Shown here: positions 3,221 to 32,706 of the stretch, in pieces
Position numbering within the stretch: position 1 is the stretch's first letter
How the letters are laid out: each line of letters begins with the position of its first letter
From: Omnitrophica bacterium GWA2_41_15
GTDB taxonomy: Bacteria; Omnitrophota; Gorgyraeia; Gygaellales; UBA12090
Direction: 5' to 3'
NCBI GenBank assembly: GCA_919902675.1
Contig: CAKKRH010000030.1
Coordinates: forward strand, 1-41,880
Length of the DNA: 41,880 nt
Notes under the pieces: model-generated
Told to the model about the DNA's origin: nothing
Seen by the model: only the letters and a program-made list of their open reading frames with translations
Databases searched by the model: none
Translations under genes and position numbers: made by a program

Positions 3221-3957
3221 CAGAAAAGACTAAATTGAAAGTGTTGGTAGTTGACGATGAAAAGGTGATTCGGGACTTCTTGAGCCGTTTTTTAAGCCTG
3301 CAATTGGCCCAGGTGAAGACCGCCGCCGACGGAGAAACGGCCATAGAGCTGGCCAAAACCGAGGAATTTGATTTGGTGTTTTTGGATATCCGGATGCCCA
3401 AGACCAACGGCCTGGAAACATTCGGGGAACTGAAGAAGATAACTCCGGATATAGCCTGCGTGTTTATGACCGGGTATGCCTCAGCCGAAGAGGATTTGAT
3501 TAACAAGATTAAATATGAAGGGATTATGTGCGTGCGCAAGCCCTTTGAGAATTTAAATAAGATAAAAGAGATAGTGGAGAATGTGCTTAAGGAGGCCAGC
3601 CTTGTGCCGGATAAAAAAGAGAGTGATCCTAAGGAGAAAAGGGCCTATCGGCGCTTTGATATGGTTTTAGAAGTAGACTACCGGATAAAAGGTAAGACAG
3701 GCGCTTTTAGCCATTGCCTAAGCAATAATATTTCCCTGGGAGGAATAAGGCTTTTAGCGCCTGATGAGTTTTCTCTGGGGACAAAATTGGATTTGGTTAT
3801 CAAGAGCCCGGACAATAAAAATACCTGCGCGGTTCCCGGCGAGGTGGTCTGGGTGAGAAAATCCGAGAGCAAGGCCGGCCATTACGAGGCGGGAATAAAA
3901 TTCAGCGAAATAAATATTAATCAGTTGTCCGGGCTGATGATGTCAATAACTGAATAA
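3217..3957 (+). CDS. Response regulator receiver fused to a PilZ domain
   Basis: VLVVDDE, FLDIRMP, MTGY, RKPF; C-terminal KRAYRR (RxxxR) and NISLGG (D/NxSxxG), GEVVWVR, AGIKF. ATGA-type overlap with the upstream kinase. Confidence 0.88.
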   Translation: MTEKTKLKVLVVDDEKVIRDFLSRFLSLQLAQVKTAADGETAIELAKTEEFDLVFLDIRMPKTNGLETFGELKKITPDIACVFMTGYASAEEDLINKIKYEGIMCVRKPFENLNKIKEIVENVLKEASLVPDKKESDPKEKRAYRRFDMVLEVDYRIKGKTGAFSHCLSNNISLGGIRLLAPDEFSLGTKLDLVIKSPDNKNTCAVPGEVVWVRKSESKAGHYEAGIKFSEININQLSGLMMSITE

Positions 3958-4087
3958 ACACTAAATTCTAAACTCTAAATCCTAAACAAACCCAAAAGCT
4001 AAAATCCTAAATCCAAAACACATGTTTTGAGTTTTGTATTTATAGTTTTGAGTTTGTTTAGAGTTTAGAATTTCGGGTTTAGAGTTT
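3955..4087. repeat. Family A palindromic heptamer element, copy 1 (133 bp)
   Basis: AAACACT AAATTCT AAACTCT AAATCCT AAACAAACCCAAA ... AAAACA-CA-TGTTTT ... TTTGAGTTTGTTTAG AGTTT AGAATTT CGGGTTT AGAGTTT. Starts at the TAA stop codon. Confidence 0.92.
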
Positions 4088-4115
4088 GTATTAGGGTTTC
4101 ATATGGAGACGCGAT

Positions 4116-4859
4116 ATGGCTGATACGAAAATCAAGGTTTTGGTAGTTGACGATGAAAAGATTATCCGGGATTTTTTTGCCCGGCTTTTATCTTTGCAGG
4201 GATTAGAGGTTGTTGAGGCCGAAGACGGCTATAAGGCCTCAGAACTTGCCAAGGCAGGTAAGTTTGACCTTTATTTTATTGATGTGCGCATGCCCGGATT
4301 GGACGGATTGGAAACCTTCCGCAAGGTAAGGCAGGTTCATCCTGAGGCGCTAGTTGTGATGATGACCGGTTACGCCTTGGATAATATTTTAGAGCAGGCC
4401 CAGAAGGAAGGGGCATCCGGCTCCATCCGCAAACCCTTTGCTATAGGTGAGATAAAAGGCATCGTGGAGAAGGCCTCCCGGGAAAGAAACAAGGGGGCTT
4501 CCAATATTTTAGTCATTGATGATGATCAAGCGGTGCTTAATTTCTTCGGTAATTTTTTAAAGGCCAAGGACCAGAAATACAGCCTGATAAATAATGCCCA
4601 AGGCGCTTTAGAACTTATTCAAAGAGAGAAATTTGATTTGGTCTTCTTGGATTTGGTGCTTAAGAAGGATGATGGTTTAGAGCTCTATAAAAAGATTAAG
4701 GAAGCCATGCCCCAGGCGGAGCTGGTGATAATTACCGGATATCACGATAAAGCTCGAGAAATTGAAGGCAGGCCCGATATCAGCGGTTTTCTTTATAAAC
4801 CCTTTGAGATTGAGGGGATAATCAAATATATTGAAAAAATAAAAAATGACCGAAGTTGA
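4116..4859 (+). CDS. Tandem receiver-domain protein (REC-REC)
   Basis: Two REC motif sets: VLVVDDE/FIDVRMP/MMTGY/RKPF and ILVIDDD/FLDLVL/IITGY/YKPF. GGAG SD upstream. Confidence 0.9.
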   Translation: MADTKIKVLVVDDEKIIRDFFARLLSLQGLEVVEAEDGYKASELAKAGKFDLYFIDVRMPGLDGLETFRKVRQVHPEALVVMMTGYALDNILEQAQKEGASGSIRKPFAIGEIKGIVEKASRERNKGASNILVIDDDQAVLNFFGNFLKAKDQKYSLINNAQGALELIQREKFDLVFLDLVLKKDDGLELYKKIKEAMPQAELVIITGYHDKAREIEGRPDISGFLYKPFEIEGIIKYIEKIKNDRS

Positions 4860-6393
4860 CAGCCTTAAAGAGGAAAACCAGCGCCTGCGCGACGAGCTCA
4901 ACGACCGGATTTTTGAGCTGTCCATACTTTATGATATCTCTAACAGCATCAGCTATACCTTAAATTATGAGGATTTTATGAAGATTATGGCTGATTCCCT
5001 GAATAGGATTATTGATTACGACCTCTGCAGTTCCTTGCTTATACTCGACGGAGAAAAGGCCAGGATGATAATCCGCGCGGCCCATCCCGTAAAGAGGGAT
5101 ATCTTTGAGGAAGTTAAGAATAATGTGATCGCTTCTTTAAATTCGCTTCGGCCAAGAGCTATTTCCGGTGAGGAGATTGAGTTTGAGGTCAGGGGAGAGA
5201 TTCTGGATGATAAGAGAAGCGAAGGCGAACGGATAGTTTCTTCTTTTGACGTGCCTTTGTTTGTGCGTCAGGAGGCGGTGGGGATATTAAATGTGGCCGC
5301 GGTCAGGGACATCGCCTATTCGGATGAGGAGATAAAACTGCTTTATACCCTGGCCTCCCAGGCCTCCGCGGCTATTGAAAGGTTGCAGGCGGTATTATCC
5401 GCGGAAAAGAGCAAGATGAAGGTGATGGTGGAGAGGATGTCTGAGGGGGTGGCGATGTTTGACGAAAAAGATGAGCTGGTGATTGTCAATTCCGCCTTTA
5501 ATGAGATGACCGGAGGCGACTTAAGCCTGTTGGGTGAGCTGGATGAGATAAAGAAGCGCCGCAAACAGCCGAAGGTTCTGGATATTCATTTGGAAAAACC
5601 GTTTCCGCGGGTAATTAACAGCGAATCAGCCTGTATTGAGGACGATAATGGCCGGTATCTGGGGATAGTAATGCTCTTGAGGGATGTAAGCAAGGAGCGG
5701 GAGATTGAACAGATGAAGTCGGATTTTGTTTCGCTGGTTTCCCACGAACTGCGCACGCCCCTGGTAGCCATAAAGGGAGCGGCGGATAATCTCTTAGACG
5801 GCCTGGCGGGTGAGTTAAACGATATTCAGAAGGATTGTCTGGTTCTTTCCAAACGTAACATTGACCGCTTAAACCGGTTGATTTCCGACCTTTTGGATAT
5901 ATCCCGGATTGAAGCCGGAAAGATTCAACTTAACAAACAGCCGGCGGATGCCGCTTCTATAGTTAAGGACGTGTTGGGTTTATTTCAGGCAAGCGCGAAA
6001 GAGAAAAACATCGCTTTGGAGTCATTACTGCCTGAGGAGCTTCCCTTAGTTACGATTGATTCGGATAAGATTAATCAGGTGCTTACCAATTTAGTGGGTA
6101 ATGCCTTGAAGTTTACTCCCGCCCAGGGTAAAATAATGATCAAGGTTTTTCGCGCGGAGAACTTCTTGCGGGTAGAGGTGAGGGATACCGGAGTAGGTAT
6201 CCCTAAGCAGGATCTGGAGAAGGTTTTTGACAAATTTTATCAGGTGGACCGCAATAAGAGTTTTACCTCGGTTAAAGGTACCGGCTTGGGGCTTCCTATA
6301 TCTAAAGGCATTGTGGAAAGGCACGGAGGCAAAATCTGGGCCGAGAGCGAGGCGGGAGAGGGAAGTAAATTCATTTTCACCCTTCCTGTTTAA
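4846..6393 (+). CDS. Cytoplasmic GAF-PAS sensor histidine kinase
   Basis: GAF motifs (VPLFVRQEAVGIL, LLYTLASQASAAIE), PAS (MSEGVAMFD...LLRDVS), H-box SHELRTPL, NLVGNALKFT, DTGVGI, GTGLGL. Confidence 0.92.
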   Translation: MTEVDSLKEENQRLRDELNDRIFELSILYDISNSISYTLNYEDFMKIMADSLNRIIDYDLCSSLLILDGEKARMIIRAAHPVKRDIFEEVKNNVIASLNSLRPRAISGEEIEFEVRGEILDDKRSEGERIVSSFDVPLFVRQEAVGILNVAAVRDIAYSDEEIKLLYTLASQASAAIERLQAVLSAEKSKMKVMVERMSEGVAMFDEKDELVIVNSAFNEMTGGDLSLLGELDEIKKRRKQPKVLDIHLEKPFPRVINSESACIEDDNGRYLGIVMLLRDVSKEREIEQMKSDFVSLVSHELRTPLVAIKGAADNLLDGLAGELNDIQKDCLVLSKRNIDRLNRLISDLLDISRIEAGKIQLNKQPADAASIVKDVLGLFQASAKEKNIALESLLPEELPLVTIDSDKINQVLTNLVGNALKFTPAQGKIMIKVFRAENFLRVEVRDTGVGIPKQDLEKVFDKFYQVDRNKSFTSVKGTGLGLPISKGIVERHGGKIWAESEAGEGSKFIFTLPV

Positions 6394-6487
6394 ACTCTAA
6401 ACTCTAAACCCGAAACTCTAAACAAACTCAAATATTTAAACCTAAAATCCAAAACAAAATAAACATAGAATTTTGTGTTTTGGGTTT
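6391..6487. repeat. Family A element, copy 2 (full left arm, truncated right arm)
   Basis: T AAACTCT AAACTCT AAACCCG AAACTCT AAACAAACTCAAA ... AAAACA-N19-TGTTTTGGGTTT. Starts at the TAA stop codon. Confidence 0.85.
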
Positions 6488-6511
6488 ACTTTTAATTTTA
6501 TAGGTGCTGCT

Positions 6512-6886
6512 ATGGACAAAAAGCCTAAGATTCTTTTAGTGGATGATGAGCCGGATGTTTTGAGTATGACCAAGATGCGCTTAGCCTCGGCAGGTTATGA
6601 GGTTATTACCGCTGAAGAAGGCGTTATGGCTTATAATATGGCCAAGTCCGAAGCGCCGAATTTAATTATCTTAGATGTGATGCTTCCGGGTATGGACGGA
6701 TACCATATCTGCCGGCTTTTGAAATTTGACCAGAAATACCGCGGTATTCCGATAATTATGCTTACGGCGCGGGGGCAGAAAGAAGACCAGGAATTGGGCG
6801 CCAAGGTGGGAGCGGATTGTTATATGGTCAAGCCCTTTGATCCCAAGGAGTTTTTGGATAAAATTAAAGAATTGCTAAAGATATGA
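6512..6886 (+). CDS. Single-domain response regulator (CheY/OmpR-type REC)
   Basis: ILLVDDE, ILDVMLP, MLTARG, VKPF. ATG 6512 chosen over TTG 6473, which lies inside the repeat. Confidence 0.9.
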   Translation: MDKKPKILLVDDEPDVLSMTKMRLASAGYEVITAEEGVMAYNMAKSEAPNLIILDVMLPGMDGYHICRLLKFDQKYRGIPIIMLTARGQKEDQELGAKVGADCYMVKPFDPKEFLDKIKELLKI

Positions 6887-7746: not shown

Positions 7747-7750
7747 AGAT

Positions 7751-8152: not shown

Positions 8153-8164
8153 TTTAAAACTCCC

Positions 8165-8346
8165 TAAACCCTAAATCCAAAATCCTAAACTCTAAACAAA
8201 CTCAAAATGATAAATTCAAAACTCAAATATAATGTTTTGGGTTTGGAAAATTTTTATTTTGGATTTGTTTAGGATTTATGGTTTAGTGTTTAGAGCTTAT
8301 CTTTTATGTTCAGTATTTAAAGTTTTAAATTCAAATTATGAAGAAA
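8165..8346. repeat. Family A element, copy 3, plus 3' tail; direct repeat of 8731-8913
   Basis: Palindromic heptamer element 8165-8299 followed by TCTTTTATGTTCAGTATTT...AAATTATGAAGAAA, shared with the next copy. Confidence 0.92.
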
Positions 8347-8727
8347 GAAGCGCGCGGGTTTACCCTAATTGAGGTATTGGTTACTACCGCGGTTTTATCT
8401 TTAGGTATAGTGCTTATCTACCGGGCATTTTTTACCCTGCTGGATTCCTTTGGTTATTACAGCAATTATTTGAGGGTAGCTGCTTTTGCCGATGAAAAAC
8501 TCTGGCAGGCCCAGGACGCCTTAAGTTGTTTCGGCCCTGATGCCGGGGCAGGGTCCTCGGGCAGGCTGAATATCCAGAATAAGGATTTTAACTGGAGGCT
8601 TTCGGTTAGTCCGATTGAAGCGGAAAGCCTATACAGGATAGATTTGGCAGTAAGCTGGCGCCAAGGCCCCAGGACAAGAGAGCTTTCTAGAAACGGTTAC
8701 GCCTTGTATATCAAGAAAGAATCCTAA
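8338..8727 (+). CDS. Minor pseudopilin, GspI/PilV-like
   Basis: G|FTLIEVLV prepilin motif, 129 aa, FNWRL and LYRIDLAVSW segments typical of GspI-like proteins. Confidence 0.8.
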   Translation: MKKEARGFTLIEVLVTTAVLSLGIVLIYRAFFTLLDSFGYYSNYLRVAAFADEKLWQAQDALSCFGPDAGAGSSGRLNIQNKDFNWRLSVSPIEAESLYRIDLAVSWRQGPRTRELSRNGYALYIKKES

Positions 8728-8730
8728 AAA

Positions 8731-8913
8731 TAAACCCGAAACCCGAAACCCGAAACTCTAAACAAACTCAAAATGATAAACTCAAAACTCAAAATAAAAT
8801 GTTTTAGGTTTGGAAAATTTTTATTTTGGATTTGTTTAGGATTTATGGTTTAGTGTTTAGAGTTTATCTTTTATGTTCAGTATTTAGAGTTTTAAATTTA
8901 AATTATGAAGAAA
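8731..8913. repeat. Family A element, copy 4, plus 3' tail; direct repeat of 8165-8346
   Basis: T AAACCCG AAACCCG AAACCCG AAACTCT AAACAAACTCAAAATGATAAA ... AAATTATGAAGAAA. About 12 differences from copy 3 over about 182 bp. Confidence 0.92.
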
Positions 8914-9480
8914 ACTGCTCCCGCGTTCACCCTCATTGAGCTGTGTTTAGTAAGCCTAATAGCTTCAGTGATCGGCCTGGCGGTGTATTTTACTTTTAGT
9001 AATGGGATGAGAATCTGGCAGAAGGCAAATCAGAAAGTTGTTGAGGAGGATTTAAGCATATTTTTTGACCGATTTGCATCAGATGTAAGAAGCTGCCTGA
9101 AATTTTCCGGCTTGGGTTTTTTAGGGACCAAGGAGAGACTTGAGATTGCTTCTTTAGTGGTGAGCCCTTATTTGAGAAATAAGACTATAGGCCGGGTGGC
9201 TTACTTTTATGAACCGAAGAGTAAAGCCTTATTCAGGGAGGAGAATGACCTCAGCCGGATATTCGAAGGCAAACAAGGAATAGCGAAAGGGATTTTAGAA
9301 AATTTAAATTCTTTGAAGTTCGGGTATTACTTTTATGATAAAGAGAAAAAAGAATATGTCTGGCTTGAGGATGCTACTCTTGAGGGATTGCCGCTGGCGG
9401 TGAGAATAGAATTTGAGCTTGACACTCAGGGTTCAGCCGGCAGGTTTGCCAGGACGGTGAGTATTCCTATCGGCGGATAG
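8905..9480 (+). CDS. Minor pseudopilin, GspJ/PilW-like
   Basis: A|FTLIEL prepilin motif; C-terminal LKFGYY...W...LPLAVRIEFEL typical of GspJ. Confidence 0.8.
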   Translation: MKKTAPAFTLIELCLVSLIASVIGLAVYFTFSNGMRIWQKANQKVVEEDLSIFFDRFASDVRSCLKFSGLGFLGTKERLEIASLVVSPYLRNKTIGRVAYFYEPKSKALFREENDLSRIFEGKQGIAKGILENLNSLKFGYYFYDKEKKEYVWLEDATLEGLPLAVRIEFELDTQGSAGRFARTVSIPIGG

Positions 9481-14285: not shown

Positions 14286-14314
14286 TACCGAGTAACAAAA
14301 TTAGAGTAAAATTA

Positions 14315-14453
14315 TAAATCCTAAATCCGAAACCATAAACCCTAAACAAACCCAAATGTCAAAACTTAAAACCCAAAACAAAAAATAAGAAATAAACCTT
14401 TGTGTTTTGAGTTTATAGTTTCGGATTTGTTTAGAATTTAGGGTTTAGGGTTT
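14315..14453. repeat. Family A element, copy 5
   Basis: T AAATCCT AAATCCG AAACCAT AAACCCT AAACAAACCCAAA ... AAAACA-N22-TGTTTT ... TTCGGATTTGTTTAG AATTT AGGGTTT AGGGTTT. Confidence 0.9.
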
Positions 14454-14464
14454 GAATTATTAAA

Positions 14465-14890
14465 ATGGCTAAGAAAATAGTCGCGCAAATTAAACTGCAT
14501 GTTCCCGCGGGGCAGGCTAATCCGGCTCCTCCGGTTGGCCCGGCATTAGGCCAGCACGGCGTGAATATAATGCAGTTCTGTAAACAATTCAACGACCAGA
14601 CTAAGGGCAGAGAAGGCCTGATCCTTCCGGCGGTAATCAGCGTATACGAGGATAAAACATTTACTTTCATAATCAAAAGTCCGCCTAGCTCGGTCCTGCT
14701 TAAAAGGGCGGCAAATATCGCCAAGGCTTCAGGCCAGGCGGGAAAAGAAAAGATTGGGACTGTTACCCGTAAGCAGGTGGAAGAAATAGTAAATTTAAAA
14801 TTAAAAGACTTGAATTGCAGCGATATAAAACAGGCGTTCAAGGTAATCGCGGGCACGGCCAGAAGCATGGGCATCGCGGTTGAGGGATAA
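14465..14890 (+). CDS. rplK: 50S ribosomal protein L11
   Basis: [29 protein letters not shown]. Confidence 0.99.
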
Positions 14891-16104: not shown

Positions 16105-16125
16105 TTGATGGTTGATAGTTTATAG
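16102..16125 (+). repeat. Family B-like heptamer array starting at the rplJ stop
   Basis: TAGTTGA TGGTTGA TAGTTTA TAG. Confidence 0.65.
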
Positions 16126-20035: not shown

Positions 20036-20054
20036 TTAACCAGCAACCAATAAT

Positions 20055-20153
20055 CGCTGAACTACGCGGAGCAGTACGCAGAACTACGCACAACTTGTAT
20101 TGCGTGGTTCCGCGCAGAGTTCAGCGTTGTTCCGCGCCCGAGCGGAGCGAGGG
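20055..20153. repeat. Family D (CGCRGAACTA-type) imperfect palindrome plus CCCGAGCGGAGCGAGGG motif
   Basis: CGCTGAACT (20055-20063)/AGTTCAGCG (20118-20126); GAACTACGCA (20081-20090)/TGCGTGGTTC (20101-20110). Confidence 0.75.
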
Positions 20154-20156
20154 TAA

Positions 20157-24206: not shown

Positions 24207-24239
24207 TAGCGAGTATCGAATAACGAAGAAGGATAGAAA

Positions 24240-24641
24240 ATGCCAACAATTTCTCAGCTTATCAGGCTTGGACGGATAAAAAAAGCAAAAAAATCTAAAT
24301 CGCCGGCGCTTAAAAATTGCCCTCAGCGAAGAGGAGTGTGCCTTCAGGTGAAGACCATGACTCCTAAGAAACCCAATTCAGCATTACGTAAGATTGCCAG
24401 GACCCGTCTCACCACCGGTATAGAGGTTACTTCTTATATTCCCGGGGAAGGACATAATTTACAGGAACATTCCATAGTCTTGGTCAGGGGCGGAAGGGTT
24501 AAGGATTTACCCGGAGTAAGGTATCATATTGTTCGGGGCACCCTGGATACCGCCGGTGTGCAAAACAGGAGAAAATCACGCTCAAAATACGGAGCCAAGA
24601 GACCTAAAGAGGCCGCCCAGGGAGCTGGTAAAACTAAATAA
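24240..24641 (+). CDS. rpsL: 30S ribosomal protein S12
   Basis: [23 protein letters not shown]. Confidence 0.99.
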
Positions 24642-24646
24642 TTTTT

Positions 24647-24707
24647 TTGAGTTGCTCGAGTTATCGAATTAAATCCGAAAATAACTCAACAAACTCGTAT
24701 GAATCGA
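24647..24707. repeat. Family C 9-mer palindrome
   Basis: TTGAGTTGC TCGAGTTA TCGAATTA AATCCGAAAAT AACTCAACA AACTCGTAT GAATCGA. Confidence 0.75.
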
Positions 24708-24713
24708 GGATAG

Positions 24714-25184
24714 ATGAGAAGAAGAAAAGCGCCAGAAAGAGAAGTTCGTTTAGACCCCAAGTATAACAGCAAGACCGTTACCAAATTTATCAATATGGTA
24801 ATGAACAGGGGCAAAAAATCGATTGCCGAGAGAATAGTTTACGGCGCCTTTGAGATAATGAGGCTAAAGCTTAATGACCAGGACGCGCTTAAGCTCTTTC
24901 ATAAGGCCATTGATAACGTCAGGCCGCGTCTGGAAGTAAAGCCGCGCCGGGTGGGTGGAGCCACCTACCAGGTTCCTATTGAGGTGCGTCAAGACAGAGG
25001 GACATCAATATCAATGCGCTGGTTAAGGGACTTTGCCAGAAATAAAAAAGGTAAGGCCATGATTGACAGGCTTGCTGATGAGTTGATTTCAGCTTATAAG
25101 GGTGAAGGTTCGGCGATAAAAAAGCGTGATGATATGCATAAGATGGCAGAGTCTAATAAGGCTTACGCTCATTTCCGCTGGTAG
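24714..25184 (+). CDS. rpsG: 30S ribosomal protein S7
   Basis: [27 protein letters not shown]. Confidence 0.99.
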
Positions 25185-25188
25185 AAAA

Positions 25189-27285
25189 ATGCAAAGACAA
25201 TTTACTTTAGATAAAATAAGAAATATTGGGATAGTAGCCCATATAGATGCCGGTAAAACCACAACCACCGAACGTATTCTTTTTTATACCGGCAGGACCT
25301 ATAAAATCGGCGAGGTCCATGAAGGGACCGCGATTATGGATTGGATGCCTCAGGAGCAGGAGCGCGGCATTACCATTACCTCGGCTTGCACTACTTGTTT
25401 TTGGCAGGATTGTCGAATTAACATTATTGATACCCCTGGGCATGTGGATTTTACTATTGAGGTTGAAAGATCTTTAAAGGTTTTAGACGGGGCAGTAGTC
25501 TTATTTGACGGAGTAAACGGGGTTGAGCCGCAATCTGAAACAGTCTGGCGTCAGGCGGATAGATACGGCGTGCCGCGGATATGCTTTGTGAATAAAATGG
25601 ACCGGCCCGGTTCAAGCGTGAGCGAAACAGTAAAACATATACATGATCGCTTGGGGGCGAATGCCGCGGCAGTGCAGATTCCTTATGGCATCGAAGATAA
25701 CCTCAAGGGAATGGTGGATATAATTGAGGATAAGCTTTATCTCTACGATGATCAGACGGGCAAAGGGTATAGCGCGGTAGATGTGCCTGAGGAATTGAAG
25801 ATAGCCGTAAAAGAGGCCCAGGGTAAATTGATAGAGCATCTGGCGGAAGCCGACGAAGAAATAATGCGGTATTATGTGGAGAATAAGTATCCCGCGAAAG
25901 ATATAATTAAGAAGGCCATCCGTAGGCAGGTTATCAATAATGCTTTTGTTCCTGTATTTTGCGGCGCTTCTTTTAAAAATAAAGGCGTTCAGCCTTTATT
26001 AGACGCGGTGTGCGCTTATTTACCGGCTCCCTCGGATCGGGTGAATATCAAAGGTATAGATCCGGCAACAGACCAATACGAAGAGCGCTTAGTCAGCGAT
26101 GACGCTCCTTTCTGTGGTTTTTCTTTTAAGGTTGCTTCCGACCCCTATGTGGGTAAGCTTAATTTTGTGCGGGTTTATTCCGGGATGCTAAAGGCCGGAA
26201 CCTATATCTATAATTCCAGCAAGCGGGAAAGAGAAAGAGTAACAAAAATAGTTTTAATGCACGCCAATAAGCAGGAAATTGTAGATAGTGTGGCAACCGG
26301 AGACATCTGCGCCCTGGTAGGACTTAAAGACACCAAGACCGGAGATACCCTTTGTGATGAAAAGGACCAGATAGTACTGGAAGCGATGCATTTTCCTGAG
26401 CCGGTTATTTCTCAGGCGGTTGAGCCAAAAACCAAATCCGATCAGGAAAAGATGGGTATGGCCTTAAGGAAGCTGATGGATGAGGATCCGTCTCTGAAGG
26501 TCAAGTATAATCATGAAACAGGTCAAACCATAATGTCGGGGATGGGGCAATTGCACCTGGATATAATTATAGACAGGATGCAGAGGGAATTCAACGTGCT
26601 GGCCATGGTGGGACAGCCCCAGGTTGCCTATAAAGAAACCCTGACCAAGAAGATTATTTCAACCGGTAAGTTTGTTCAGCAGTCGGGAGGCCGCGGGCAA
26701 TACGGACATTGTGTTTTAGAGATGCAGCCGCATGAAACTCCCGGGGCAGGGGTAACTTTTGAAGATAAGCTTAAGGGCGGAGTAATCCCTCGGGAATATA
26801 TTCCAGCAGTCAGGAATGGAGTTATGGCCAGCGCCAAGAGCGGGATTTTAGCCGGCTATCCGGTTACGGATGTGGCGGTTACTTTAATTGACGGCTCATA
26901 TCATGATGTGGATTCTTCAGAGCTATCCTTTCAGATGGCCGGATCTATCGCCTTCAGTGACGGCATGAGGCAGGCTTCTTCTATTTTGCTGGAGCCGATT
27001 ATGGATATGGAGGTTATCGTTCCGGAAGAATTTATGGGCACTATTATTGGCGACTTGAATTCACGCCGGGCAAAAATAGTTTCTTTGGGTCAGCGTGCCA
27101 ATGCCAGAATTATCAGGTGCACCGTTCCTTTGGCGGAGATATTTAATTATGCCACCATTATCCGCTCTATGACCCAGGGGAGAGCGAGTTATTCAATGGA
27201 GCCCTCCTTTTATCACGAGGTGCCTTCACATATAGCGCAGAAGATAACTGAAAGAGGTACCGCTGTCCAGAGGTTCGGTGTATAA
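25189..27285 (+). CDS. fusA: Elongation factor G
   Basis: [37 protein letters not shown]. Start at ATG 25189, after the rpsG stop. Confidence 0.99.
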
Positions 27286-27296
27286 GCAAAATAACT

Positions 27297-27339
27297 CTAC
27301 CTGCTTTAGATGAGCAGGCCTGTCTACTAAAGCAGGTAG
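27297..27339. repeat. 13-bp perfect inverted repeat between fusA and tuf
   Basis: CTACCTGCTTTAG (27297-27309) / CTAAAGCAGGTAG (27327-27339); no U-tract. Confidence 0.7.
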
Positions 27340-27400
27340 GTTCCAGGCTCTAAGTGTGTGATTTGCTTATCGGTATTCATAATTACGAAAGGAGTTGAAT

Positions 27401-28603
27401 ATGGCTAAAGAAAAATTTGTAAGATCAAAACCGCATGTAAATGTCGGAACCATCGGTCATGTAGACCACGGGAAAACCACTCTCACTTCAGCAATTACTT
27501 GTGTGTTACATAAAAAAGGTTTTGCCGAGGCCAGGGCCTACGACAGTATTGATAACGCTCCCGAGGAAAGGGAGAGAGGGGTTACTATTAATATCTCCCA
27601 TGTGGAGTATCAAACCGACGAGCGCCATTATGCTCATATTGATTGTCCCGGCCACGCCGATTTTATTAAAAATATGATTACCGGAGCGGCCCAGATGGAT
27701 GGGGCGATATTGGTGGTTTCCGCGGCTGACGGCCCGATGCCCCAGACCAGGGAGCATATCTTATTGGCCCGTCAGGTGAATGTCCCGGCAATGGTAGTGT
27801 TTTTAAATAAGGTGGATATGGTCGAGGACAAGGAGTTGATTGATTTGGTTGAGATGGAGGTCAGGGATTTGCTTACCAAATACAATTTTCCCGGAGACAA
27901 AACTCCAATCATCAAAGGCTCGGGGTTAAACGCGATGAATTGCGCCTGCGCCAAGGATGATTGCCCTAATTGTAAGCCGATATTTGAATTGATGAAGGCC
28001 GTGGATTCCTTTATTCCGCTTCCCAAGAGAGACCTGGATAAGCCGTTCTTGATGGCGGTTGAAGATGTGTTCTCTATTGAAGGCCGCGGCACAGTCGGTA
28101 CCGGGAGAATAGAGCGTGGCAAGGTTAAGCTTAACGAGAGCGTGGATATCGTGGGCTTGAGGCCTGAGATAGGCAAAACCGTAGTTACCGGAATTGAGAT
28201 GTTCCGTAAGCTTTTGGATGAGGGTATGGCCGGAGATAATGTCGGGCTTCTCTTAAGAGGCGTTGATAAACAAACCTTAGAGAGAGGGATGGTTTTGGCG
28301 GCTCCGGGTTCAATTACTCCTCATACTAAATTCAAGGCCCAGATTTATATTTTGTCTAAGGAAGAAGGCGGAAGGCATACCCCGTTTTTTAAAGGATACC
28401 GGCCCCAGTTTTATTTTCGGACAACAGACGTTACCGGGGATTGTCATCTTCCAGAAGGCGTGGAAATGGTCATGCCCGGGGATAATATTCAGCTTGAGGT
28501 AGAACTGATAATACCGATTGCCATGGAAAAAGAATCCCGTTTTGCCATACGTGAGGGCGGACATACCGTCGGAGCGGGAGTTGTTTCTGAGATTATAAAG
28601 TAA
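27401..28603 (+). CDS. tuf: Elongation factor Tu
   Basis: [44 protein letters not shown] before ATG 27401. Confidence 0.99.
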
Positions 28604-28605
28604 AA

Positions 28606-28697
28606 CGCGCGATTTCGCGCTAATTTTTATTCGCGAATATTCTTGCCTGTTTGTCAGGCTGGATGCGGGTATGATTCGCGAGAATTCGCGCCTAAAA
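28606..28697. repeat. ATTCGCG-rich repeat region between tuf and rpsJ
   Basis: CGCGATTTCGCG, ATTCGCGAAT, ATTCGCGAGAATTCGCG; inner GCCTG-TTTGT-CAGGC hairpin; AATTCGCGCCTAAAA (28683-28697) identical to 13183-13197. Confidence 0.6.
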
Positions 28698-28705
28698 AAA
28701 AGAGA

Positions 28706-29005
28706 ATGCAAAAAATTCGTATAAAACTGAAGGCCTACGATCACCGCGTATTAGATCAGGCAGTGGCAGAGATAGTGGAAACCGGCAAGAGAACAGGGGC
28801 AAAGGTTTCCGGGCCCATCCCTCTTCCGGTTAAGCGTGAGATCTACACGGTGAATCGTTCGCCGGTCATTGATAAAAAATCCAGGGAACAGTTTTATTTA
28901 ATTACCCATAAGCGTCTTATGGAATTGAATGAGCCTACTGCCAAGACAATCGATGCTCTTCGCAAGCTCAATCTTCCGGCAGGCGTAGATGTGGAAATAA
29001 AATAA
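28706..29005 (+). CDS. rpsJ: 30S ribosomal protein S10
   Basis: [38 protein letters not shown]. Start at ATG 28706. Confidence 0.98.
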
Positions 29006-29077
29006 ACGCGGAACTTTCGCGGAACTACGCATAACCTATATTACGTTATTGCGCGTAAAGTTCTGCATAGTTGAGCG
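29006..29077. repeat. Family D imperfect palindrome
   Basis: CGCGGAACTTT CGCGGAACTA CGCATAAC ... GTTATTGCG CGTAAAGTTCTGC ATAGTTGAGCG. Confidence 0.7.
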
Positions 29078-29085
29078 AGAATAAA

Positions 29086-29784
29086 ATGTCTAATTATATT
29101 ATTGGTAAAAAAATAGGGATGACTCAGATTTACGATGAGTCGGGAAAGTTGACTCCGGTTACGGTAATTGAGGCCGGGCCATGTCCGATTCTTGCGGTTA
29201 AGGATAGGAATATTCAGATAGGTTTTGACGCGGTTAAAGAAAAAGCTTTAACTAAGCCTGTCCTAGGTATCTATAAAAAAGCCGGAGTAAGCCCGCGCAG
29301 GATGTTGAAAGAAGTCCCTAAGGTTTCCGGTCAAGAGTATGCGGTGGGAGGAGAGCTTAAGGTAGACATTTTTACTTTTGGCGAGAAAGTGGATGTTATT
29401 GGTGTTTCCATTGGTAAGGGTTTTCAGGGTGGGATGAAGCGCTGGCATTGGCAGGGCGGGCCTAAGACCCATGGTTCAACCAGTCATCGCCGGGTAGGCT
29501 CAATCGGTTCTAGCACCACTCCGGGAAGGGTCTTTAAGGGGCATCATATGCCGGGGCATATGGGAAATGAAAAGGTTACTGTCTTTGGCCTTAAGGTGGT
29601 AAAGGTAGACAGCGTGAATAATCTTTTGGCCTTAAAGGGCGCTGTGCCGGGGCCTAAAAATAATTATCTGGTTATCCGTAAGACTACTAAACATAAACGT
29701 CAGGTAATTAAGCCTATAATTGCCGAACAGAAGGCTGAGGCGGGAAAGAAAGACGCCAAGAAGCAGGCAGCGGCTAAGAAATAA
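29086..29784 (+). CDS. rplC: 50S ribosomal protein L3
   Basis: GKKIGMTQ, PVTVIEAGP, GKGFQG, HGSTSHRRVGSIG, KGAVPGP. Start at ATG 29086. Confidence 0.98.
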   Translation: MSNYIIGKKIGMTQIYDESGKLTPVTVIEAGPCPILAVKDRNIQIGFDAVKEKALTKPVLGIYKKAGVSPRRMLKEVPKVSGQEYAVGGELKVDIFTFGEKVDVIGVSIGKGFQGGMKRWHWQGGPKTHGSTSHRRVGSIGSSTTPGRVFKGHHMPGHMGNEKVTVFGLKVVKVDSVNNLLALKGAVPGPKNNYLVIRKTTKHKRQVIKPIIAEQKAEAGKKDAKKQAAAKK

Positions 29785-29880
29785 ATCAAATATCAAATAT
29801 TAAAATCTAAAATACAGACAAAAATTAAAATAAAATATCAAAATGCAAAAATCAAAAAGACAATCTAAAGACAAAAAAGA
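29782..29880 (+). repeat. Family E A-rich heptamer array (AAAWATC) overlapping the rplD start
   Basis: AAATATC AAATATT AAAATCT AAAATAC AGAC AAAAATT ... AAATATC AAAATGC AAAAATC AAAAAGAC. Confidence 0.65.
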
Positions 29881-30502
29881 CATATCGGAAACCATAGCGG
29901 TATACAATAACCAGGGTAAGAAGATTGAAGAGCTTCCTTCAATCTTTAATGGTCCGCTTAAGCCCGCGGTAGTATCGCAAGCCGTCACGATGTATCTGGC
30001 CAATCAAAGACACGGGTTGGCCTCTACCAAGACAATCGGCGAAGTTTCCGGCGGCGGCAAGAAGCCTTGGAAACAGAAGGGAACAGGCAGGGCCAGGGCC
30101 GGTTCAATCCGTTCACCCTTATGGAGGCACGGAGGTGTTGTTTTTGGCCCGCACCCGAAAGATTTTCATTATACCCTATCGGCAAAACTCAGGGATGCCG
30201 CTTTACGTTCAGTCTTGAACGAAAAAAACCTAAACGGCGATATATTAGTCCTGGAAAAATTAGAAATAGCAAGACCCAAAACCAGAGAGATAAAAAATTT
30301 ATTGGAGAGTCTAAATATAAAAGCAAAAACCCTTTTGGTTTTACCGAAAGCCGATCATAACCTGAAGCTCGCGATTAAGAATATGACGGACGTAGAGTCG
30401 GTATTGGCGCAAGGCCTGAACGCGCTTGATTGCCTTAAAGCCGGAAAGATTATTTTCTCAAAAGAATCTTTAGAGTTATTGAAAAAACGGTTAGAAAAAT
30501 AA
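29843..30502 (+). CDS. rplD: 50S ribosomal protein L4
   Basis: EVSGGGKKPWKQKGTGRARAGSIRSPLWRHGGVVFGP. Confidence 0.98.
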   Translation: MQKSKRQSKDKKDISETIAVYNNQGKKIEELPSIFNGPLKPAVVSQAVTMYLANQRHGLASTKTIGEVSGGGKKPWKQKGTGRARAGSIRSPLWRHGGVVFGPHPKDFHYTLSAKLRDAALRSVLNEKNLNGDILVLEKLEIARPKTREIKNLLESLNIKAKTLLVLPKADHNLKLAIKNMTDVESVLAQGLNALDCLKAGKIIFSKESLELLKKRLEK

Positions 30503-30510
30503 TTAAAAAT

Positions 30511-30798
30511 ATGATGACAAATACTAATTCGTATGATATAATTAAAACTTTGTTACGCACAGAGAAATCAACTCAGTTAGAGCCAGCGAGAAAATATTTA
30601 TTTCTCGTCGATAAAAAAGCGAATAAGGTTCAAATAAAAAAAGCGGTTGAAGAAATTTATAAGGTGAAGGTTTCTTCGGTAAACACAAAGATATCTCCCG
30701 GGAAGCTGCGGGTGGTGCGCCGCGAGGCCGGTTATGAACCGGATAAAAAGACAGCCCTGGTTACCTTAAAAGAAGGCAATAAAATAGAAACTACGTAA
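30511..30798 (+). CDS. rplW: 50S ribosomal protein L23
   Basis: TEKS, ANKVQIKKAVEEIYKVKVSSVNT, KKTALVTLKEG. Confidence 0.96.
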   Translation: MMTNTNSYDIIKTLLRTEKSTQLEPARKYLFLVDKKANKVQIKKAVEEIYKVKVSSVNTKISPGKLRVVRREAGYEPDKKTALVTLKEGNKIETT

Positions 30799-30837
30799 AG
30801 TTTAGTTGAATAAGATATTAAGCGAGAACCAAAAATC

Positions 30838-30986
30838 AAACACTAAATCCTAAACCATAAACTCTAAACAAACTCAAAATGTCGAAAACACAAAACACAA
30901 AAACAGAAAAAAGTAATATAAATATTTCGCGTTTTGAGTTTATGATTTTGAGTTTGTTTAGGGTTTAGAATTTAGAGTTTGAGTTT
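30838..30986. repeat. Family A element, copy 6
   Basis: AAACACT AAATCCT AAACCAT AAACTCT AAACAAACTCAAA ... AAAACA-N24-CGTTTT ... TTTGAGTTTGTTTAG GGTTT AGAATTT AGAGTTT. Confidence 0.9.
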
Positions 30987-31016
30987 TTTTAATAATAATT
31001 CTAAAGAGTAATAGAA

Positions 31017-31850
31017 ATGGGTATAAAAAAACATAAGCCGACAACACCGAGTTTAAGGTGGACGCATACATCGGATTTCCAAGAGTTAACCGCTCAGAAG
31101 CCGCATAAGCCGTTATTGAGACCGCTGAAGAAAAGCGGAGGAAGAAATGTCTACGGCAGGATAACTGTTCGCCATCACGGCGGCGGCCACAAGAGGATGT
31201 ATCGCTTGATTGATTTTAAGCGCGACCGGCTTGATGAGTTTGCCACGGTTTTAACTATTGAGTATGATCCTAACCGTTCAGGCAGAATAATGTTAATTGA
31301 ATATCCGGATCACCAAAAAAGGTATTGTATCGCTCCGTTAGAAACAAAGGTTGGGGATAAGGTCATAAGTTCCTATAAGCCTGATATAGAAATAAAGCCG
31401 GGCAATTGCCTTTCTTTAAGGCATATTCCTTTAGGGGTTCCTATCCATAATCTTGAACTTGCCAAAGGAAAAGGCGGCCAGATAGTCAGGAGCGCGGGAA
31501 ACCTGGCCAATATTACGGCAAAAGAAGGCGATATGGCCCAGGTGAGGCTTCCCTCCGGAGAGGTAAGGTTTATTAATTTAGACTGCCGGGCTACTGTCGG
31601 GCAGGTTTCTAATATAGATCATGAGTCTTTAGTCATAGGTAAGGCAGGCAGAAGCCGCTGGCTGGGAATACGGCCTACTGTTAGGGGTTTGGCAATGAAT
31701 CCGGTTGACCATCCGCATGGCGGCGGTGAAGGTAAATCCGGCCAAGGAAATCCTCATCCGGTTACTCCCTGGGGCAAACCAACAAAAGGTTTCAAAACCC
31801 GCAATAAGAACAAATATTCAAATAAATTCATCGCCAAAAAAAGAAAATAG
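31017..31850 (+). CDS. rplB: 50S ribosomal protein L2
   Basis: [30 protein letters not shown]. Confidence 0.99.
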
Positions 31851-31886
31851 GCTAGCGCGTAGTAAACAGTAAAAAACATATTTCTC

Positions 31887-31914
31887 TTAACTGTTCACTG
31901 TGAACCGTTAACTA
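31887..31914 (-). repeat. Family B heptamer array, inverted
   Basis: Reverse complement reads T AGTTAAC GGTTCAC AGTGAAC AGTTAA. Confidence 0.75.
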
Positions 31915-31936
31915 TCTGAAGCGAAGCGAGGATGTA

Positions 31937-32224
31937 ATGCCGAGATCATTAAAAAAGGGTCCATATATAGACCTAAAGTTATTAAAAAAGGTAGAAAAAA
32001 CAAGGTCCAGCGGTTCACGTCTGCCGATTAAGACTTGGTCCAGGCGTTCTACCATAAGTCCGGATTTTGTGGGTTTAACTATTGCCGTGCATGATGGAAG
32101 AAGGCACATTCCGGTATTTATCGTGGAGAATATGGTGGGGCATAAATTAGGAGAGTTTGCTCCCAGCAGAATTTTCAGGAAACATGGCGGCGTAAAGGCC
32201 AAGAAGGCCGCGGAAAAAACATAA
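31937..32224 (+). CDS. rpsS: 30S ribosomal protein S19
   Basis: [27 protein letters not shown]. Confidence 0.99.
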
Positions 32225-32225
32225 A

Positions 32226-32561
32226 ATGTTAGTAAAAGCAAGCGCTAAATTTATAAGGATATCACCCAGCCGTCTTCGAGAGGTAATGGATTGCGTGCGG
32301 GGAAAGAGCGTGATAGAGGCCGAAGGAATTTTGCTTAATATTGGTAAGCGCGCCAAGGGATATATTCAAAAGGTTTTAAAATCAGCGGCGGCTAACGCCA
32401 AGGTCAAGGGTTTTTCTCCGGAACAGTTATATATCTCTAAAATTAACGCTGACGCCGGTCCGATGTGGAAGAGATTTAAGGCAGCGGCTTTTGGCCGGGC
32501 ATCAAAGATACTCAAACGCACTAGCCATATTAATATAGAACTGGATCTTAAAAATAAATAA
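32226..32561 (+). CDS. rplV: 50S ribosomal protein L22
   Basis: RISP, SAAANA, GRASKILKRTSHI. Confidence 0.97.
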   Translation: MLVKASAKFIRISPSRLREVMDCVRGKSVIEAEGILLNIGKRAKGYIQKVLKSAAANAKVKGFSPEQLYISKINADAGPMWKRFKAAAFGRASKILKRTSHINIELDLKNK

Positions 32562-32573
32562 GATAATGGGCTT

Positions 32574-32706
32574 AAACTCTAAACCCGAAATCCTAAACTC
32601 TAAACAAACTCAAAACCATAAACACAAAACTCAAAACATGTGTTTTGGATTTAGGATTTTAGCTTTTGGGTTTGTTTAGGATTTAGAGTTTAGGATTTAG
32701 GGTTTA
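32574..32706. repeat. Family A element, copy 7 (133 bp; inverted copy of 3955-4087)
   Basis: Matches the reverse complement of 3955-4087 at 128/133 positions with no gaps (manual alignment). Confidence 0.93.

What the first reader, a model, noticed from the sequence alone, without database searches (positions are those of the whole stretch)
3955..32706. Family A: seven roughly 100-150 bp hairpin elements with hypervariable heptamers and an invariant CTAAACAAACYCAAA core
Seen at 3955, 6391, 8165, 8731, 14315, 30838 and 32574. Every left arm has four heptamers (AAACTCT, AAATCCT, AAACCCG, AAACCAT, AAACACT, AAATTCT and similar, in shuffled order) ending in CTAAACAAAC[T/C]CAAA (7/7 copies). The right arm has TT[T/C]G[G/A][G/A]TTTGTTTAG (6/6 complete copies) followed by inverse heptamers. 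Left arms are almost free of G and right arms almost free of C. Inference: fixed AAA phasing with free inner positions plus an invariant core suggests recognition by a multimeric protein, or a fold-back structure under selection, rather than simple slippage.
Basis: partly seen in the sequence, partly recalled or inferred. Interest (0 to 1): 0.8.

Follow-up and report, generated by a model that had tools for sequence, protein, structure and literature searches.

The report
Mobile hairpin repeats between operon genes
The seven look-alike DNA hairpins are gene-less copies of a small selfish element that sits between co-transcribed genes in very different microbes; they are not switches built for the neighbouring genes.

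Summary
All seven copies lie at the stated places, with the 15-nt core in 7 of 7 left arms and 6 of 6 complete right arms (13 core hits against 0.03 expected). The genome holds 53 such places, all between co-directional genes.

The same architecture occurs in more than 105 stretches of genomes labelled with about ten phyla. One host is archaeal by marker genes, and host GC runs from 0.34 to 0.69.

The copies are insertions. Family A is absent from 11 of 11 orthologous spacers in a congener and from about 95%-identical strains at all 3 window sites examined.

In 61 loci elsewhere the same cores frame a ~120-aa four-helix-bundle gene (PF05635, "23S rRNA intervening-sequence protein"), and its start codon overlaps the core. 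The window copies keep only that gene's two ends, so they are internal-deletion, MITE-like derivatives.

The arms show no compensatory covariation. RNase III was not found in this order. How the element moves is unknown.

Earlier notes of this scan described the same family on other DNA, and I tested their lead here. My eight literature searches found no published description. Verdict: a real, apparently undescribed variant of a known kind; interest 0.72.

The parts
3953..4089 (.). Family A copy 1. It fills the gap between a response-regulator/PilZ gene (3217-3957) and a response-regulator gene (4116-4859). Its first heptamer supplies the upstream gene's TAA stop.
   Evidence: nhmmer E=1.3e-33; left core 3982-3996 and right core 4047-4061; heptamers and G/C counts; flanking Pfam families; upstream ORF ends at 3957.
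6388..6492 (.). Family A copy 2, truncated. The left arm, core and inner part are present but the right core is missing. It lies between a histidine-kinase gene (4846-6393) and a response-regulator gene (6473-6886).
   Evidence: nhmmer E=9.8e-17; left core 6418-6432 only; no right core.
8162..8303 (.). Family A copy 3, upstream of pilin-like gene 8338-8727. It belongs to a subfamily with copy 4 and three copies on other contigs.
   Evidence: nhmmer E=2.8e-30; cores 8192-8206 and 8258-8272; the five-copy subfamily alignment has 88% mean column identity.
8729..8870 (.). Family A copy 4, upstream of the next pilin-like gene 8905-9480. It shares core, inner part, right arm and downstream flank with copy 3 but differs in the left outer heptamers.
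   Evidence: nhmmer E=6.3e-33; cores 8758-8772 and 8825-8839; 88.7% identical to copy 3.
14313..14456 (.). Family A copy 5, in the nusG-rplK spacer. It is absent in related strains.
   Evidence: nhmmer E=2.4e-31; NusG and L11 Pfam hits; DNA contigs of three runs skip 14282/14284 to 14461/14465, one with only 'GG' between and 255 letters on the shorter side.
30836..30988 (.). Family A copy 6, in the rplW-rplB spacer. The 26 nt after its left core best match the 5' end of the parent element's gene.
   Evidence: nhmmer E=4.0e-29; orientation score +48.3; the spacer is 218 nt here, 103 nt of other sequence in the congener G001, and 0-14 nt in 12 of 22 genomes of the order with a value; a contig of run X12 replaces it by 33 other letters; a contig from an RNA library spans 30524-31307.
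32570..32708 (.). Family A copy 7, in the rplV-rpsC spacer.
   Evidence: nhmmer E=5.2e-37; cores 32600-32614 and 32665-32679; the spacer is 194 nt here against 72 nt of other sequence in G001; a contig of run X16 skips 32551 to 32757 with 255 letters on the shorter side; a contig of run X12 replaces the inner part 32607-32673 by 6 letters.

Best explanation
Family A is a dispersed family of gene-less, MITE-like copies of a small selfish cassette. The full cassette is about 470 nt. [quoted passage not shown] Each arm is about four heptamers (AAAYYCT) followed by the core CTAAACAAAYYCAAA, and the gene's ATG overlaps the last base of the left core. The window copies have lost all but about 26 nt at each end of the gene. 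What remains is a 130-150 nt imperfect hairpin.

Shown here: the elements sit in the short spacers between co-directional genes, from a few bases after a stop codon to just before the next start. They are insertions that close relatives lack. The family occurs in multiple copies in hosts from several bacterial phyla and in one archaeal genome.

Inferred: the elements spread by horizontal transfer and proliferate within genomes. They are carried along in the operon transcript as near-neutral passengers. The conserved C-T-A-A-A pentamers and the core are what the still unknown mobilising machinery recognises, with the element's own pentamer-forming protein as the first candidate. The free YY positions are simply not recognised.
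For: 1. Family size and position. There are 53 places in the 1.74-Mb genome, all between co-directional genes (32 '++', 21 '--'). In 35 full copies the median distance is 13 nt from the upstream stop and 19 nt to the next start, and 5 of 35 contain the upstream stop codon.

2. Distribution. The 80 labelled rows read Omnitrophota 20, Patescibacteria groups 19, Planctomycetota 19, and smaller numbers of Syntrophaceae, Deltaproteobacteria, Thermodesulfobacteriota, Thermodesulfovibrionales, Gammaproteobacteria, Chloroflexia, Acidobacteriaceae, Bacteroidetes and 'Halobacteria archaeon'. All show the same anatomy. Host-locus GC is 0.34-0.69. Core hits number 11-44 in each of 5 of 5 other hosts, against 3-11 for the control. 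One host, G426, carries ribosomal protein S28e and lacks L7/L12, while four bacterial hosts show the reverse.

3. Insertion polymorphism. Family A is present at 0 of 11 orthologous spacers in the congener G001 (2 in the window; 9 on other contigs), and two of those sites are empty (1 nt and 0 nt). Contigs of ~90-96%-alike strains skip the element at all 3 window sites laid.

4. Parent element. In 61 loci the same cores lie 375-405 nt apart (59 metagenome contigs; L107; G015). Of these, 44 hold an intact 119-123-aa ORF, 4 a 98-aa ORF and 13 a shorter or broken one. The ORF starts at offset 14-15 of the core in 42 of the 44 intact cases. The ORF scores 47.2 bits for PF05635 (cut-off 33.8) and 70 bits for TIGR02436. 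It is co-oriented with both flanking ORFs in 40 of 46 loci, and in 99 of 107 flank calls. Long and short forms co-occur in G015, G423, G425 and G426.

5. Origin of the short forms. They match the first and last ~26 nt of the long form's interior, with scores up to +54.
Against: - The cassette encodes no transposase, integrase or reverse transcriptase, and movement itself was not observed.
- Target-site duplication is unresolved. One empty site suggests a TA duplication and the other shows none.
- This 80%-complete genome holds no long form with Family A cores. It has seven PF05635 cassettes with other arm units, two of them of the same protein subfamily.
- Copies within the genome are only 62-89% identical, with a median of 71%. 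That is odd for insertions absent from ~95%-identical strains.
- In G001, 7 of 9 orthologous spacers hold other inserts, at least 4 of them other heptamer-armed hairpins. Replacement in place cannot be told from independent insertion.
- No copy was found in IMG/VR viral contigs or phage records, so no vector for transfer is known.
- The orientation of short forms relative to host genes is uncertain: 15 co-oriented, 5 opposite and 5 ambiguous, from a classifier that misjudges some long forms.
Confidence: 0.75

Rival explanations
1. The hairpins are host cis-acting RNA elements. They would be intercistronic stem-loops selected to process, stabilise or attenuate operon mRNAs, or to couple translation of neighbouring genes.
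For: All 53 places lie between co-directional genes, some inside ribosomal-protein operons. The predicted RNA hairpins average about -41 kcal/mol. A contig from a metatranscriptome library spans rplW, the element and rplB, although the tool warns that DNA may be present in such a library.
Against: The elements are absent at the same sites in a congener (0 of 11) and in ~95%-alike strains (3 of 3 sites). Most genomes of the order have 0-14 nt in these spacers. There is no compensatory covariation. The sense strand folds no better than the antisense strand (mean -41.0 against -42.9; sense better in 12 copies, antisense in 23). No Rfam family matches at gathering score. The same element sits next to unrelated genes in many phyla.
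Confidence: 0.1
2. The hairpins are REPIN-like elements moved in trans by the genome's Y1 (IS200/RAYT-like) tyrosine transposases, which act on folded single-stranded DNA. On this reading the PF05635 gene is cargo and not the mobiliser.
For: The genome encodes six Y1_Tnp (PF01797) proteins. The elements are hairpin-forming, and one of the two empty sites shows no target duplication. From recall, that fits this transposase class.
Against: None of the 6 Y1 genes is flanked by Family A arms. Each has its own GC-richer flanking palindrome. The only gene found between Family A cores in 61 loci is PF05635. I did not test whether Y1 genes and Family A co-occur across genomes.
Confidence: 0.15
3. The arrays are double-stranded DNA binding sites for a multimeric host protein, for example a nucleoid or segregation factor.
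For: The C-T-A-A-A pentamer has a strict 7-bp phase with free YY positions. The two arms vary independently, as expected if each is read as duplex DNA.
Against: The insertion polymorphism and the cross-phylum, cross-domain spread argue against a host function. The copies are derived from a gene cassette. No candidate host protein was identified.
Confidence: 0.07
4. The arrays arose in place by replication slippage of heptanucleotide simple repeats, which are common in these genomes.
For: Unit number varies from 3 to more than 7 per arm, and some arms are runs of one unit, such as five AAACCCT units at C20:78761 and alternating units in L027. Other 7- and 9-nt arrays fill neighbouring spacers.
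Against: A non-repetitive 15-nt core and inner segments homologous to a gene's ends are shared by copies in more than 100 genomes. Slippage may change unit number but cannot create these.
Confidence: 0.03

Closest known systems
ORF-bearing intervening sequences (IVS) of 23S rRNA genes (Coxiella burnetii, Leptospira; PMC4990558, abstract and passages read; PMC11270868, passages read)
   Same: Both are cassettes of about 430-470 nt. A PF05635-family ORF sits in the loop of a stem formed by complementary termini. Distribution is sporadic and is read as horizontal transfer. The ORF is often decaying: 17 of the 61 long forms here are shortened or broken. ORF-less short versions exist in both.
   Different: These copies lie between protein-coding genes and not in rRNA helices. 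The arms are arrays of 7-nt units plus a fixed core and not a plain 28-bp stem. Gene-less derivatives reach 53 places in one genome. RNase III, the enzyme that excises an IVS, was not found in 0 of 21 genomes of this order. No heptamer-armed insert was seen in the four full-length 23S genes compared (G001, G006, G013, G016).
Bacterial MITEs (for example Correia elements of Neisseria and RPEs of Rickettsia; recalled, no paper read here)
   Same: Both are short, gene-less, multi-copy elements with inverted termini. They are internal-deletion derivatives of a longer element with the same ends, lie between genes or at gene ends, and are sometimes co-transcribed. Both show presence/absence polymorphism.
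   Different: The parent encodes no recognisable transposase. The target duplication is unresolved. The same family is found across phyla and in an archaeon. Within-genome copies are unusually diverged, with a median identity of 71%.
REP / BIME / REPIN elements with RAYT transposases
   Same: Both are imperfect palindromes in operon spacers, present in many copies per genome. A Y1 transposase family is present in this genome.
   Different: Family A is 130-150 nt against about 20-40 nt (recalled). It is built of heptamer arrays. It is not found next to the Y1 genes (0 of 6). Its long-form partner is PF05635.
Intergenic heptanucleotide repeat arrays: GGGAATC of Xanthomonas with 70-75 convergent pairs (PMC4692102, passages read) and TAACTGA of Beggiatoaceae (PMC4679880, listing and start of abstract only)
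   Same: Both have 7-nt units, are intergenic, lie mostly between co-oriented genes and closer to the upstream gene, and often occur as convergent pairs able to form stem-loops.
   Different: Those arrays are near-perfect simple repeats, discussed as quadruplex-forming or regulatory. The passages I read describe no fixed core and no link to a gene cassette. Whether they are arms of PF05635 cassettes was not tested here.

Membership tests
MITE (non-autonomous inverted-repeat element) | Short, without a gene, in many dispersed copies | tested here: met
   105-153 nt in the window; 53 places in the genome; no ORF.
MITE (non-autonomous inverted-repeat element) | Terminal inverted repeats | tested here: met
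   43 mirrored positions per arm, 81.4% of cells pair.
MITE (non-autonomous inverted-repeat element) | Derived by internal deletion from a longer element with the same ends | tested here: met
   61 long forms carry the same cores. Short forms match the first and last ~26 nt of the long form's interior.
MITE (non-autonomous inverted-repeat element) | The parent element encodes a transposase | tested here: not met
   The only ORF between the cores is PF05635/TIGR02436.
MITE (non-autonomous inverted-repeat element) | Target-site duplication | tested here: inconclusive
   Two empty sites in G001: one shows a possible TA duplication and the other none.
MITE (non-autonomous inverted-repeat element) | Presence/absence polymorphism between close relatives | tested here: met
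   Present at 0 of 11 orthologous sites in G001; skipped in contigs of related strains at 3 of 3 window sites.
23S rRNA intervening sequence (ORF-bearing IVS) | Inserted in a 23S rRNA helix | tested here: not met
   All copies lie between protein genes. This genome has no 23S. Of the four full-length 23S genes compared (G001, G006, G013, G016), the only large inserts (~370-420 nt in G006 and G013) have no heptamer arms; G015's 23S is at a contig end and matched the model contiguously.
23S rRNA intervening sequence (ORF-bearing IVS) | Complementary termini forming a stem around a PF05635 ORF | tested here: met
   Met for the long forms. The window copies keep the stem only.
23S rRNA intervening sequence (ORF-bearing IVS) | Excised from the transcript by RNase III | tested here: inconclusive
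   There are no RNA ends to read, because the runs are kept as contigs. No RNase III domain was found in 0 of 21 genomes of the order (PF14622, PF00636) or in the own genome (TIGR02191). It is present in 4 of 5 other hosts.
REP/REPIN with RAYT | The cognate Y1 transposase gene is flanked by the repeat | tested here: not met
   There are six Y1_Tnp genes and none is flanked by Family A.
REP/REPIN with RAYT | Short (about 20-40 nt) palindrome unit (size recalled) | tested here: not met
   130-150 nt with heptamer arrays.
Heptanucleotide simple-sequence repeat arrays | Near-perfect head-to-tail 7-nt units with no unique sequence | tested here: not met
   The YY positions vary within arrays, and a unique core and inner part are conserved.
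Integron attC site | Lies at the end of mobile gene cassettes in an array | tested here: not met
   The flanking genes are core genes: nusG/rplK, rplW/rplB and rplV/rpsC. An integrase was not searched for.
Any Rfam RNA family | Match at the family's gathering score | tested here: not met
   Only two tRNAs were found in the window.

The most novel reading that the evidence does not exclude
Hairpin-framed PF05635 cassettes and their gene-less derivatives form a distinct class of mobile element that crosses the bacterial-archaeal divide and carries no transposase. On this reading the element's only protein, an Avd-like pentameric four-helix bundle, recognises the 7-nt-periodic C-T-A-A-A arrays and the core on a folded single strand (DNA or RNA) and recruits host enzymes to copy or insert it into transcribed spacers. 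The classical rRNA intervening sequences would then be merely the subset that landed in rRNA. Intergenic heptamer arrays described in other bacteria, such as those of Xanthomonas, may be relics of the same class.
Probability: 0.3. Interest if true: 0.9.

Novelty: new variant of a known kind. Interest (0 to 1): 0.72.

Why it matters
It gives an origin to a conspicuous kind of 'dark' intergenic sequence in ultra-small and uncultured microbes: these hairpins are passengers and not regulators. That prevents them from being mis-annotated as riboswitches, terminators or telomere-like repeats.

It links the long-puzzling '23S rRNA intervening-sequence protein' family, which is abundant, has solved structures and has no known function, to a mobile cassette that also lives outside rRNA and leaves MITE-like relics. 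This makes the protein's function testable: does it bind its own arms?

An AT-rich 140-nt element with an unchanged 15-nt core sits in hosts from 34% to 69% GC, including an archaeon. That is a clear marker of recent gene flow between distant lineages in groundwater and sediment communities.

The elements also break assemblies, as shown by an NN gap in G002 and by contigs that jump between copies. This matters for the quality of metagenome-assembled genomes.

Tried and rejected
- Sense against antisense RNA folding, oriented by host gene direction, showed no sense bias.
- Counting U-G against C-A in long forms oriented by their ORF gave C-A 213 and U-G 126, so there is no clean strand signature.
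- I tried to orient short forms by a position matrix of the inner segments and by core polarity. Both are noisy. Own arms still paired less than shuffled partners.
- Part of this deficit comes from conserved asymmetric positions such as core CT opposite TC. In addition, mirrored units share YY less often than chance (0.310 against 0.389 +/- 0.015) and units tend to alternate within an arm. I have no firm explanation. Selection against perfect palindromes is a guess.
- Link to rRNA intervening sequences: this genome has no 23S. The inserts in the 23S of G006 and G013 have no heptamer arms and no ORF.
- A viral-contig scan and a phage blastn both returned 0.
- RNase III was not found in this order but is present in 4 of 5 other hosts. 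Neither 'needs RNase III' nor 'tolerated only without it' holds.
- The G002 rplV-rpsC spacer of '0 nt' is an NN assembly gap, and I dropped it.
- RNA evidence is limited to assembled contigs, so no ends, strand or levels can be read. Several joints between different copies (for example 14353 to 32643) are assembly jumps between repeats, and I ignored them.
- A phylum-wide scan for long forms with a 370-400 nt gap found 1 of 401 genomes. The gap range was narrow, so this undercounts.
- NCBIfam scans of genes flanking the copies in the 69%-GC loci did not settle the domain. Ribosomal markers did.
- Literature searches found no description of this element. Supplementary files were not consulted.

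Full report
**Observation.** The window is contig C30 of a 1.74-Mb, 58-contig, about 80%-complete genome. It carries two-component and pilin-like genes followed by the nusG-rplK-rpoBC-S10-spc ribosomal cluster, with all genes on the + strand. The core CTAAACAAACYCAAA, allowing 1 mismatch, occurs 13 times against 0.03 expected. There are seven exact + strand hits, five mirror hits, and one hit in an unrelated 9-mer array at 36456. Each left arm has four heptamers and the core. Six copies have the mirrored core and heptamers, and the copy at 6388 is truncated on the right. Left arms hold 0-3 G and right arms 0-2 C. 'C-rich arm first' is true on both strands of such a palindrome, so it says nothing about orientation.

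**The family in this genome.** A profile search gives 53 places. All lie between co-directional genes (32 '++', 21 '--'). In the background, 94% of neighbouring gene pairs are co-directional, so this is only a weak bias. The elements fill the spacer. In 35 full copies the median distance is 13 nt from the upstream stop and 19 nt to the next start, and 5 of 35 supply the upstream gene's stop codon. Copies are 62-89% identical, with a median of 71%. Subfamilies reach about 88%. No Rfam family matches.

**Elsewhere.**
- Among 41 genomes of the same order, core hits clearly exceed the reversed-pattern control only in the own genome (74), G016 (32), G015 (13) and, more weakly, G001, G002 and G013.
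- The 80 labelled rows name Omnitrophota (20), Patescibacteria groups (19), Planctomycetota (19), Syntrophaceae (3), Deltaproteobacteria (2), Thermodesulfobacteriota (2), Thermodesulfovibrionales (1), Gammaproteobacteria (3), 'Halobacteria archaeon' (3), Chloroflexia, Acidobacteriaceae and Bacteroidetes (1 each) and unnamed bacteria (5).
- These labels are the records' own and may be imprecise.
- All copies show the same anatomy.
- Host-locus GC ranges from 0.34 to 0.69, so this is not one lineage mis-binned.
- In five other host genomes the core occurs 11-44 times, against 3-11 for the control.
- The 69%-GC host G426 has 44 hits on 24 contigs. It carries ribosomal protein S28e and lacks L7/L12, while four bacterial hosts show the reverse. 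By these markers it is archaeal, although contamination of that genome bin cannot be excluded.

**Insertions, not conserved sites.**
- In 24 genomes of the order, the rplW-rplB spacer is 0-14 nt in 12 of the 22 with a value. The own genome has 218 nt there.
- The rplV-rpsC spacer is 14 nt or less in 11 of the 22 others, after dropping G002, whose '0' is an NN gap. The own genome has 194 nt.
- The congener G001 shows about 96% amino-acid identity across 33 proteins of the cluster. It differs from the own genome by 40 nt or more in 11 of 32 spacers, and each genome has its own hairpin inserts.
- For nine further own copies on contigs C16 and C20, G001 has Family A at none. Two sites are empty (1 nt and 0 nt) and seven hold other sequence, at least four of them other heptamer-armed hairpins.
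- Contigs of related strains in other groundwater and aquifer metagenomes skip the element at nusG-rplK. In run X16 only 'GG' lies between, with 255 letters on the shorter side and flanks about 95-96% alike. Runs X3 and X12 show the same skip.
- Related contigs also skip it at rplW-rplB (X12, replaced by 33 other letters, side 30) and at rplV-rpsC (X16, side 255). One X12 contig keeps the arms of the last copy but replaces its inner part by 6 letters.

**The parent element.** I tested a lead from earlier notes of this scan.
- This genome has seven PF05635 genes. Most are framed by inverted arms of about 7-nt units of other sequence, and three lie beside tRNA genes.
- In locus L107, Family A cores frame a 122-aa ORF that scores 47.2 bits for PF05635.
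- A metagenome scan for the cores 375-405 nt apart returned 59 stretches, and G015 adds one more.
- Of the 61 long forms, 44 hold an intact 119-123-aa ORF, 4 a 98-aa ORF and 13 a shorter or broken one. In 42 of the 44 intact cases the ATG begins at the last base of the core or the next base.
- The protein is TIGR02436 'four helix bundle protein' and matches PDB 2rld at E=4.5e-15.
- The ORF is co-oriented with both flanking ORFs in 40 of 46 loci. This fits a promoterless cassette read from the host operon.
- The 26 nt after the left core and before the right core of short forms match the long form's gene start and 3' tail, with scores up to +54. The copy at 30864 is the clearest case in the window.
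- Long forms were verified in three other hosts that also hold short forms. In the archaeal one the element's GC is 0.49 within flanks of 0.69.
- The size and layout match what is published for ORF-bearing 23S rRNA intervening sequences: 428-444 nt, terminal inverted repeats forming a stem, and a PF05635-family ORF, whose Xanthomonas relative crystallised as a homopentamer (PMC4990558, passages). Such ORFs are also reported inside rRNA insertions of Patescibacteria (PMC11270868, passages).

**Structure under selection?** I aligned 108 copies (103 from other genomes and 5 from the window) and tested 43 mirrored pairs. Of the cells, 81.4% pair against 82.7 +/- 0.3% when partners are shuffled (500 of 500 shuffles at least as high). 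The covariation score is 0.110 against 0.131, and double changes number 124 against 230.7. My own counts agree. Only the YY positions and the seventh position vary. Y always faces R, giving T-A, C-G, T-G or C-A in near-random or slightly anti-correlated proportions. Mirrored units share YY less often than chance, and units tend to alternate along an arm. So pairing comes from the conserved five of seven positions, and there is no sign of compensatory evolution. Sense and antisense RNAs fold equally well.

**RNase III.** The enzyme that excises rRNA intervening sequences was not found in the own genome or in 0 of 21 genomes of the order, 13 of them at least 90% complete, using two Pfam models whose controls worked. 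It is present in 4 of 5 other hosts. Excision by RNase III therefore cannot be assumed here, and the family is not confined to hosts without it. One contig from a metatranscriptome library spans rplW, the element and rplB. That is compatible with read-through, but the tool warns that such libraries can hold DNA.

**Mechanism.** Shown: a multi-copy family that is polymorphic for insertion, derived from a one-gene cassette, and shared across distant hosts. Inferred: mobility and horizontal transfer; passive co-transcription; and recognition of the C-T-A-A-A arrays and core by whatever moves the element. The cassette has no transposase. The genome does encode six Y1 (IS200/RAYT-like) transposases, but none is flanked by Family A. 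They remain a possible trans-acting mobiliser. Target duplication is unresolved.

**Comparison and novelty.** The nearest described things are ORF-bearing rRNA intervening sequences, bacterial MITEs, REP/REPIN elements and intergenic heptamer arrays such as the convergent GGGAATC pairs of Xanthomonas (PMC4692102, passages). Family A fails at least one defining test of each (see the membership table). Eight full-text searches found no description of this element. Supplementary files were not seen. Earlier notes of this scan reported the same family on other genomes, and what I took from them was re-tested here. I rate it a new variant of a known kind: a MITE-like derivative of an IVS-type cassette living in operon spacers.

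Noticed in passing
window 36411-36470 and 38390-38460: Tandem 9-mer arrays (CAACAAACT-type units, about 7 copies) fill the rpsH-rplF and rplO-secY spacers. Their unit resembles the Family A core. G001 has 9 nt at the first site and a different hairpin insert at the second.
   Followed up: partly
window 20036-20156, 27286-27394, 40594-40659: Other hairpin or short-repeat inserts fill the rpoB-rpoC, fusA-tuf and a later spacer. They are absent or different in the congener G001, and G001 in turn has its own inserts in spacers that are short here.
   Followed up: partly
whole genome and 20 relatives (G000-G020): No RNase III domain (PF14622, PF00636; TIGR02191 in the own genome) was found in 0 of 21 genomes of this order, 13 of them at least 90% complete, while the control genomes scored.
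   Followed up: partly
G000 C13:93171-93548, C1:57245-57619, C14:35383-35748, C12:33172-33558, C6:96190-96564, C12:41220-41585, C24:1192-1557: Seven PF05635 genes are present, most framed by inverted arms built of other ~7-nt units. Three lie beside tRNA genes. The C6 and C24 proteins share the N-terminal and GANYxEA motifs of the Family A long forms.
   Followed up: partly
L150 (G001 23S rRNA), position about 861; also G006, G013 and others: The 23S rRNA of relatives contains a 14-of-15 match to the Family A core (CTAAACAAACTCAGA). This may be coincidence, and I did not pursue it.
   Followed up: no
L151 (G006) and L152 (G013), 23S rRNA near positions 2570-2674: ORF-less insertions of about 370-420 nt interrupt the 23S rRNA gene. 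They have no heptamer arms. Their kind was not determined.
   Followed up: no
G000 C12:51674-52339, C1:136045-136719, C20:42424-43128, C31:2334-3281, C49:10570-11247, C49:3294-3986: Six Y1_Tnp (IS200/RAYT-like) genes are present. Several are flanked by their own GC-richer inverted repeats, and some are followed by short tandem units.
   Followed up: partly
L214:11996-12145 (G000 C16:28996-29145): Another ~150-nt repeat family matches about 20 places in the congener G001 at 74-92% identity. One of them occupies the G001 spacer that holds Family A in the own genome.
   Followed up: no
G000 C20:88257-88396, C22:20531-20694, C44:29234-29394; also L012, L028, L036, L051: Some copies carry a short GC-rich mini-hairpin inserted just inside or beside one core, in this genome and in other phyla.
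   Followed up: no
G000 C9:14522-14776: A left arm and a right arm are separated by about 120 nt of GC-rich, hairpin-rich sequence instead of the usual inner part.
   Followed up: no
window 8162-9480: There is a tandem pair of 'element + pilin-like gene' units. The two elements share core, inner part, right arm and the downstream flank but differ in the left outer heptamers, as does a third unit on contig C9. This suggests duplication or recombination with a breakpoint inside the element.
   Followed up: partly
L129 (G004) rplW-rplB spacer: This 38-nt spacer starts with two TTTAGGG-type units. It may be a remnant of a heptamer arm.
   Followed up: no
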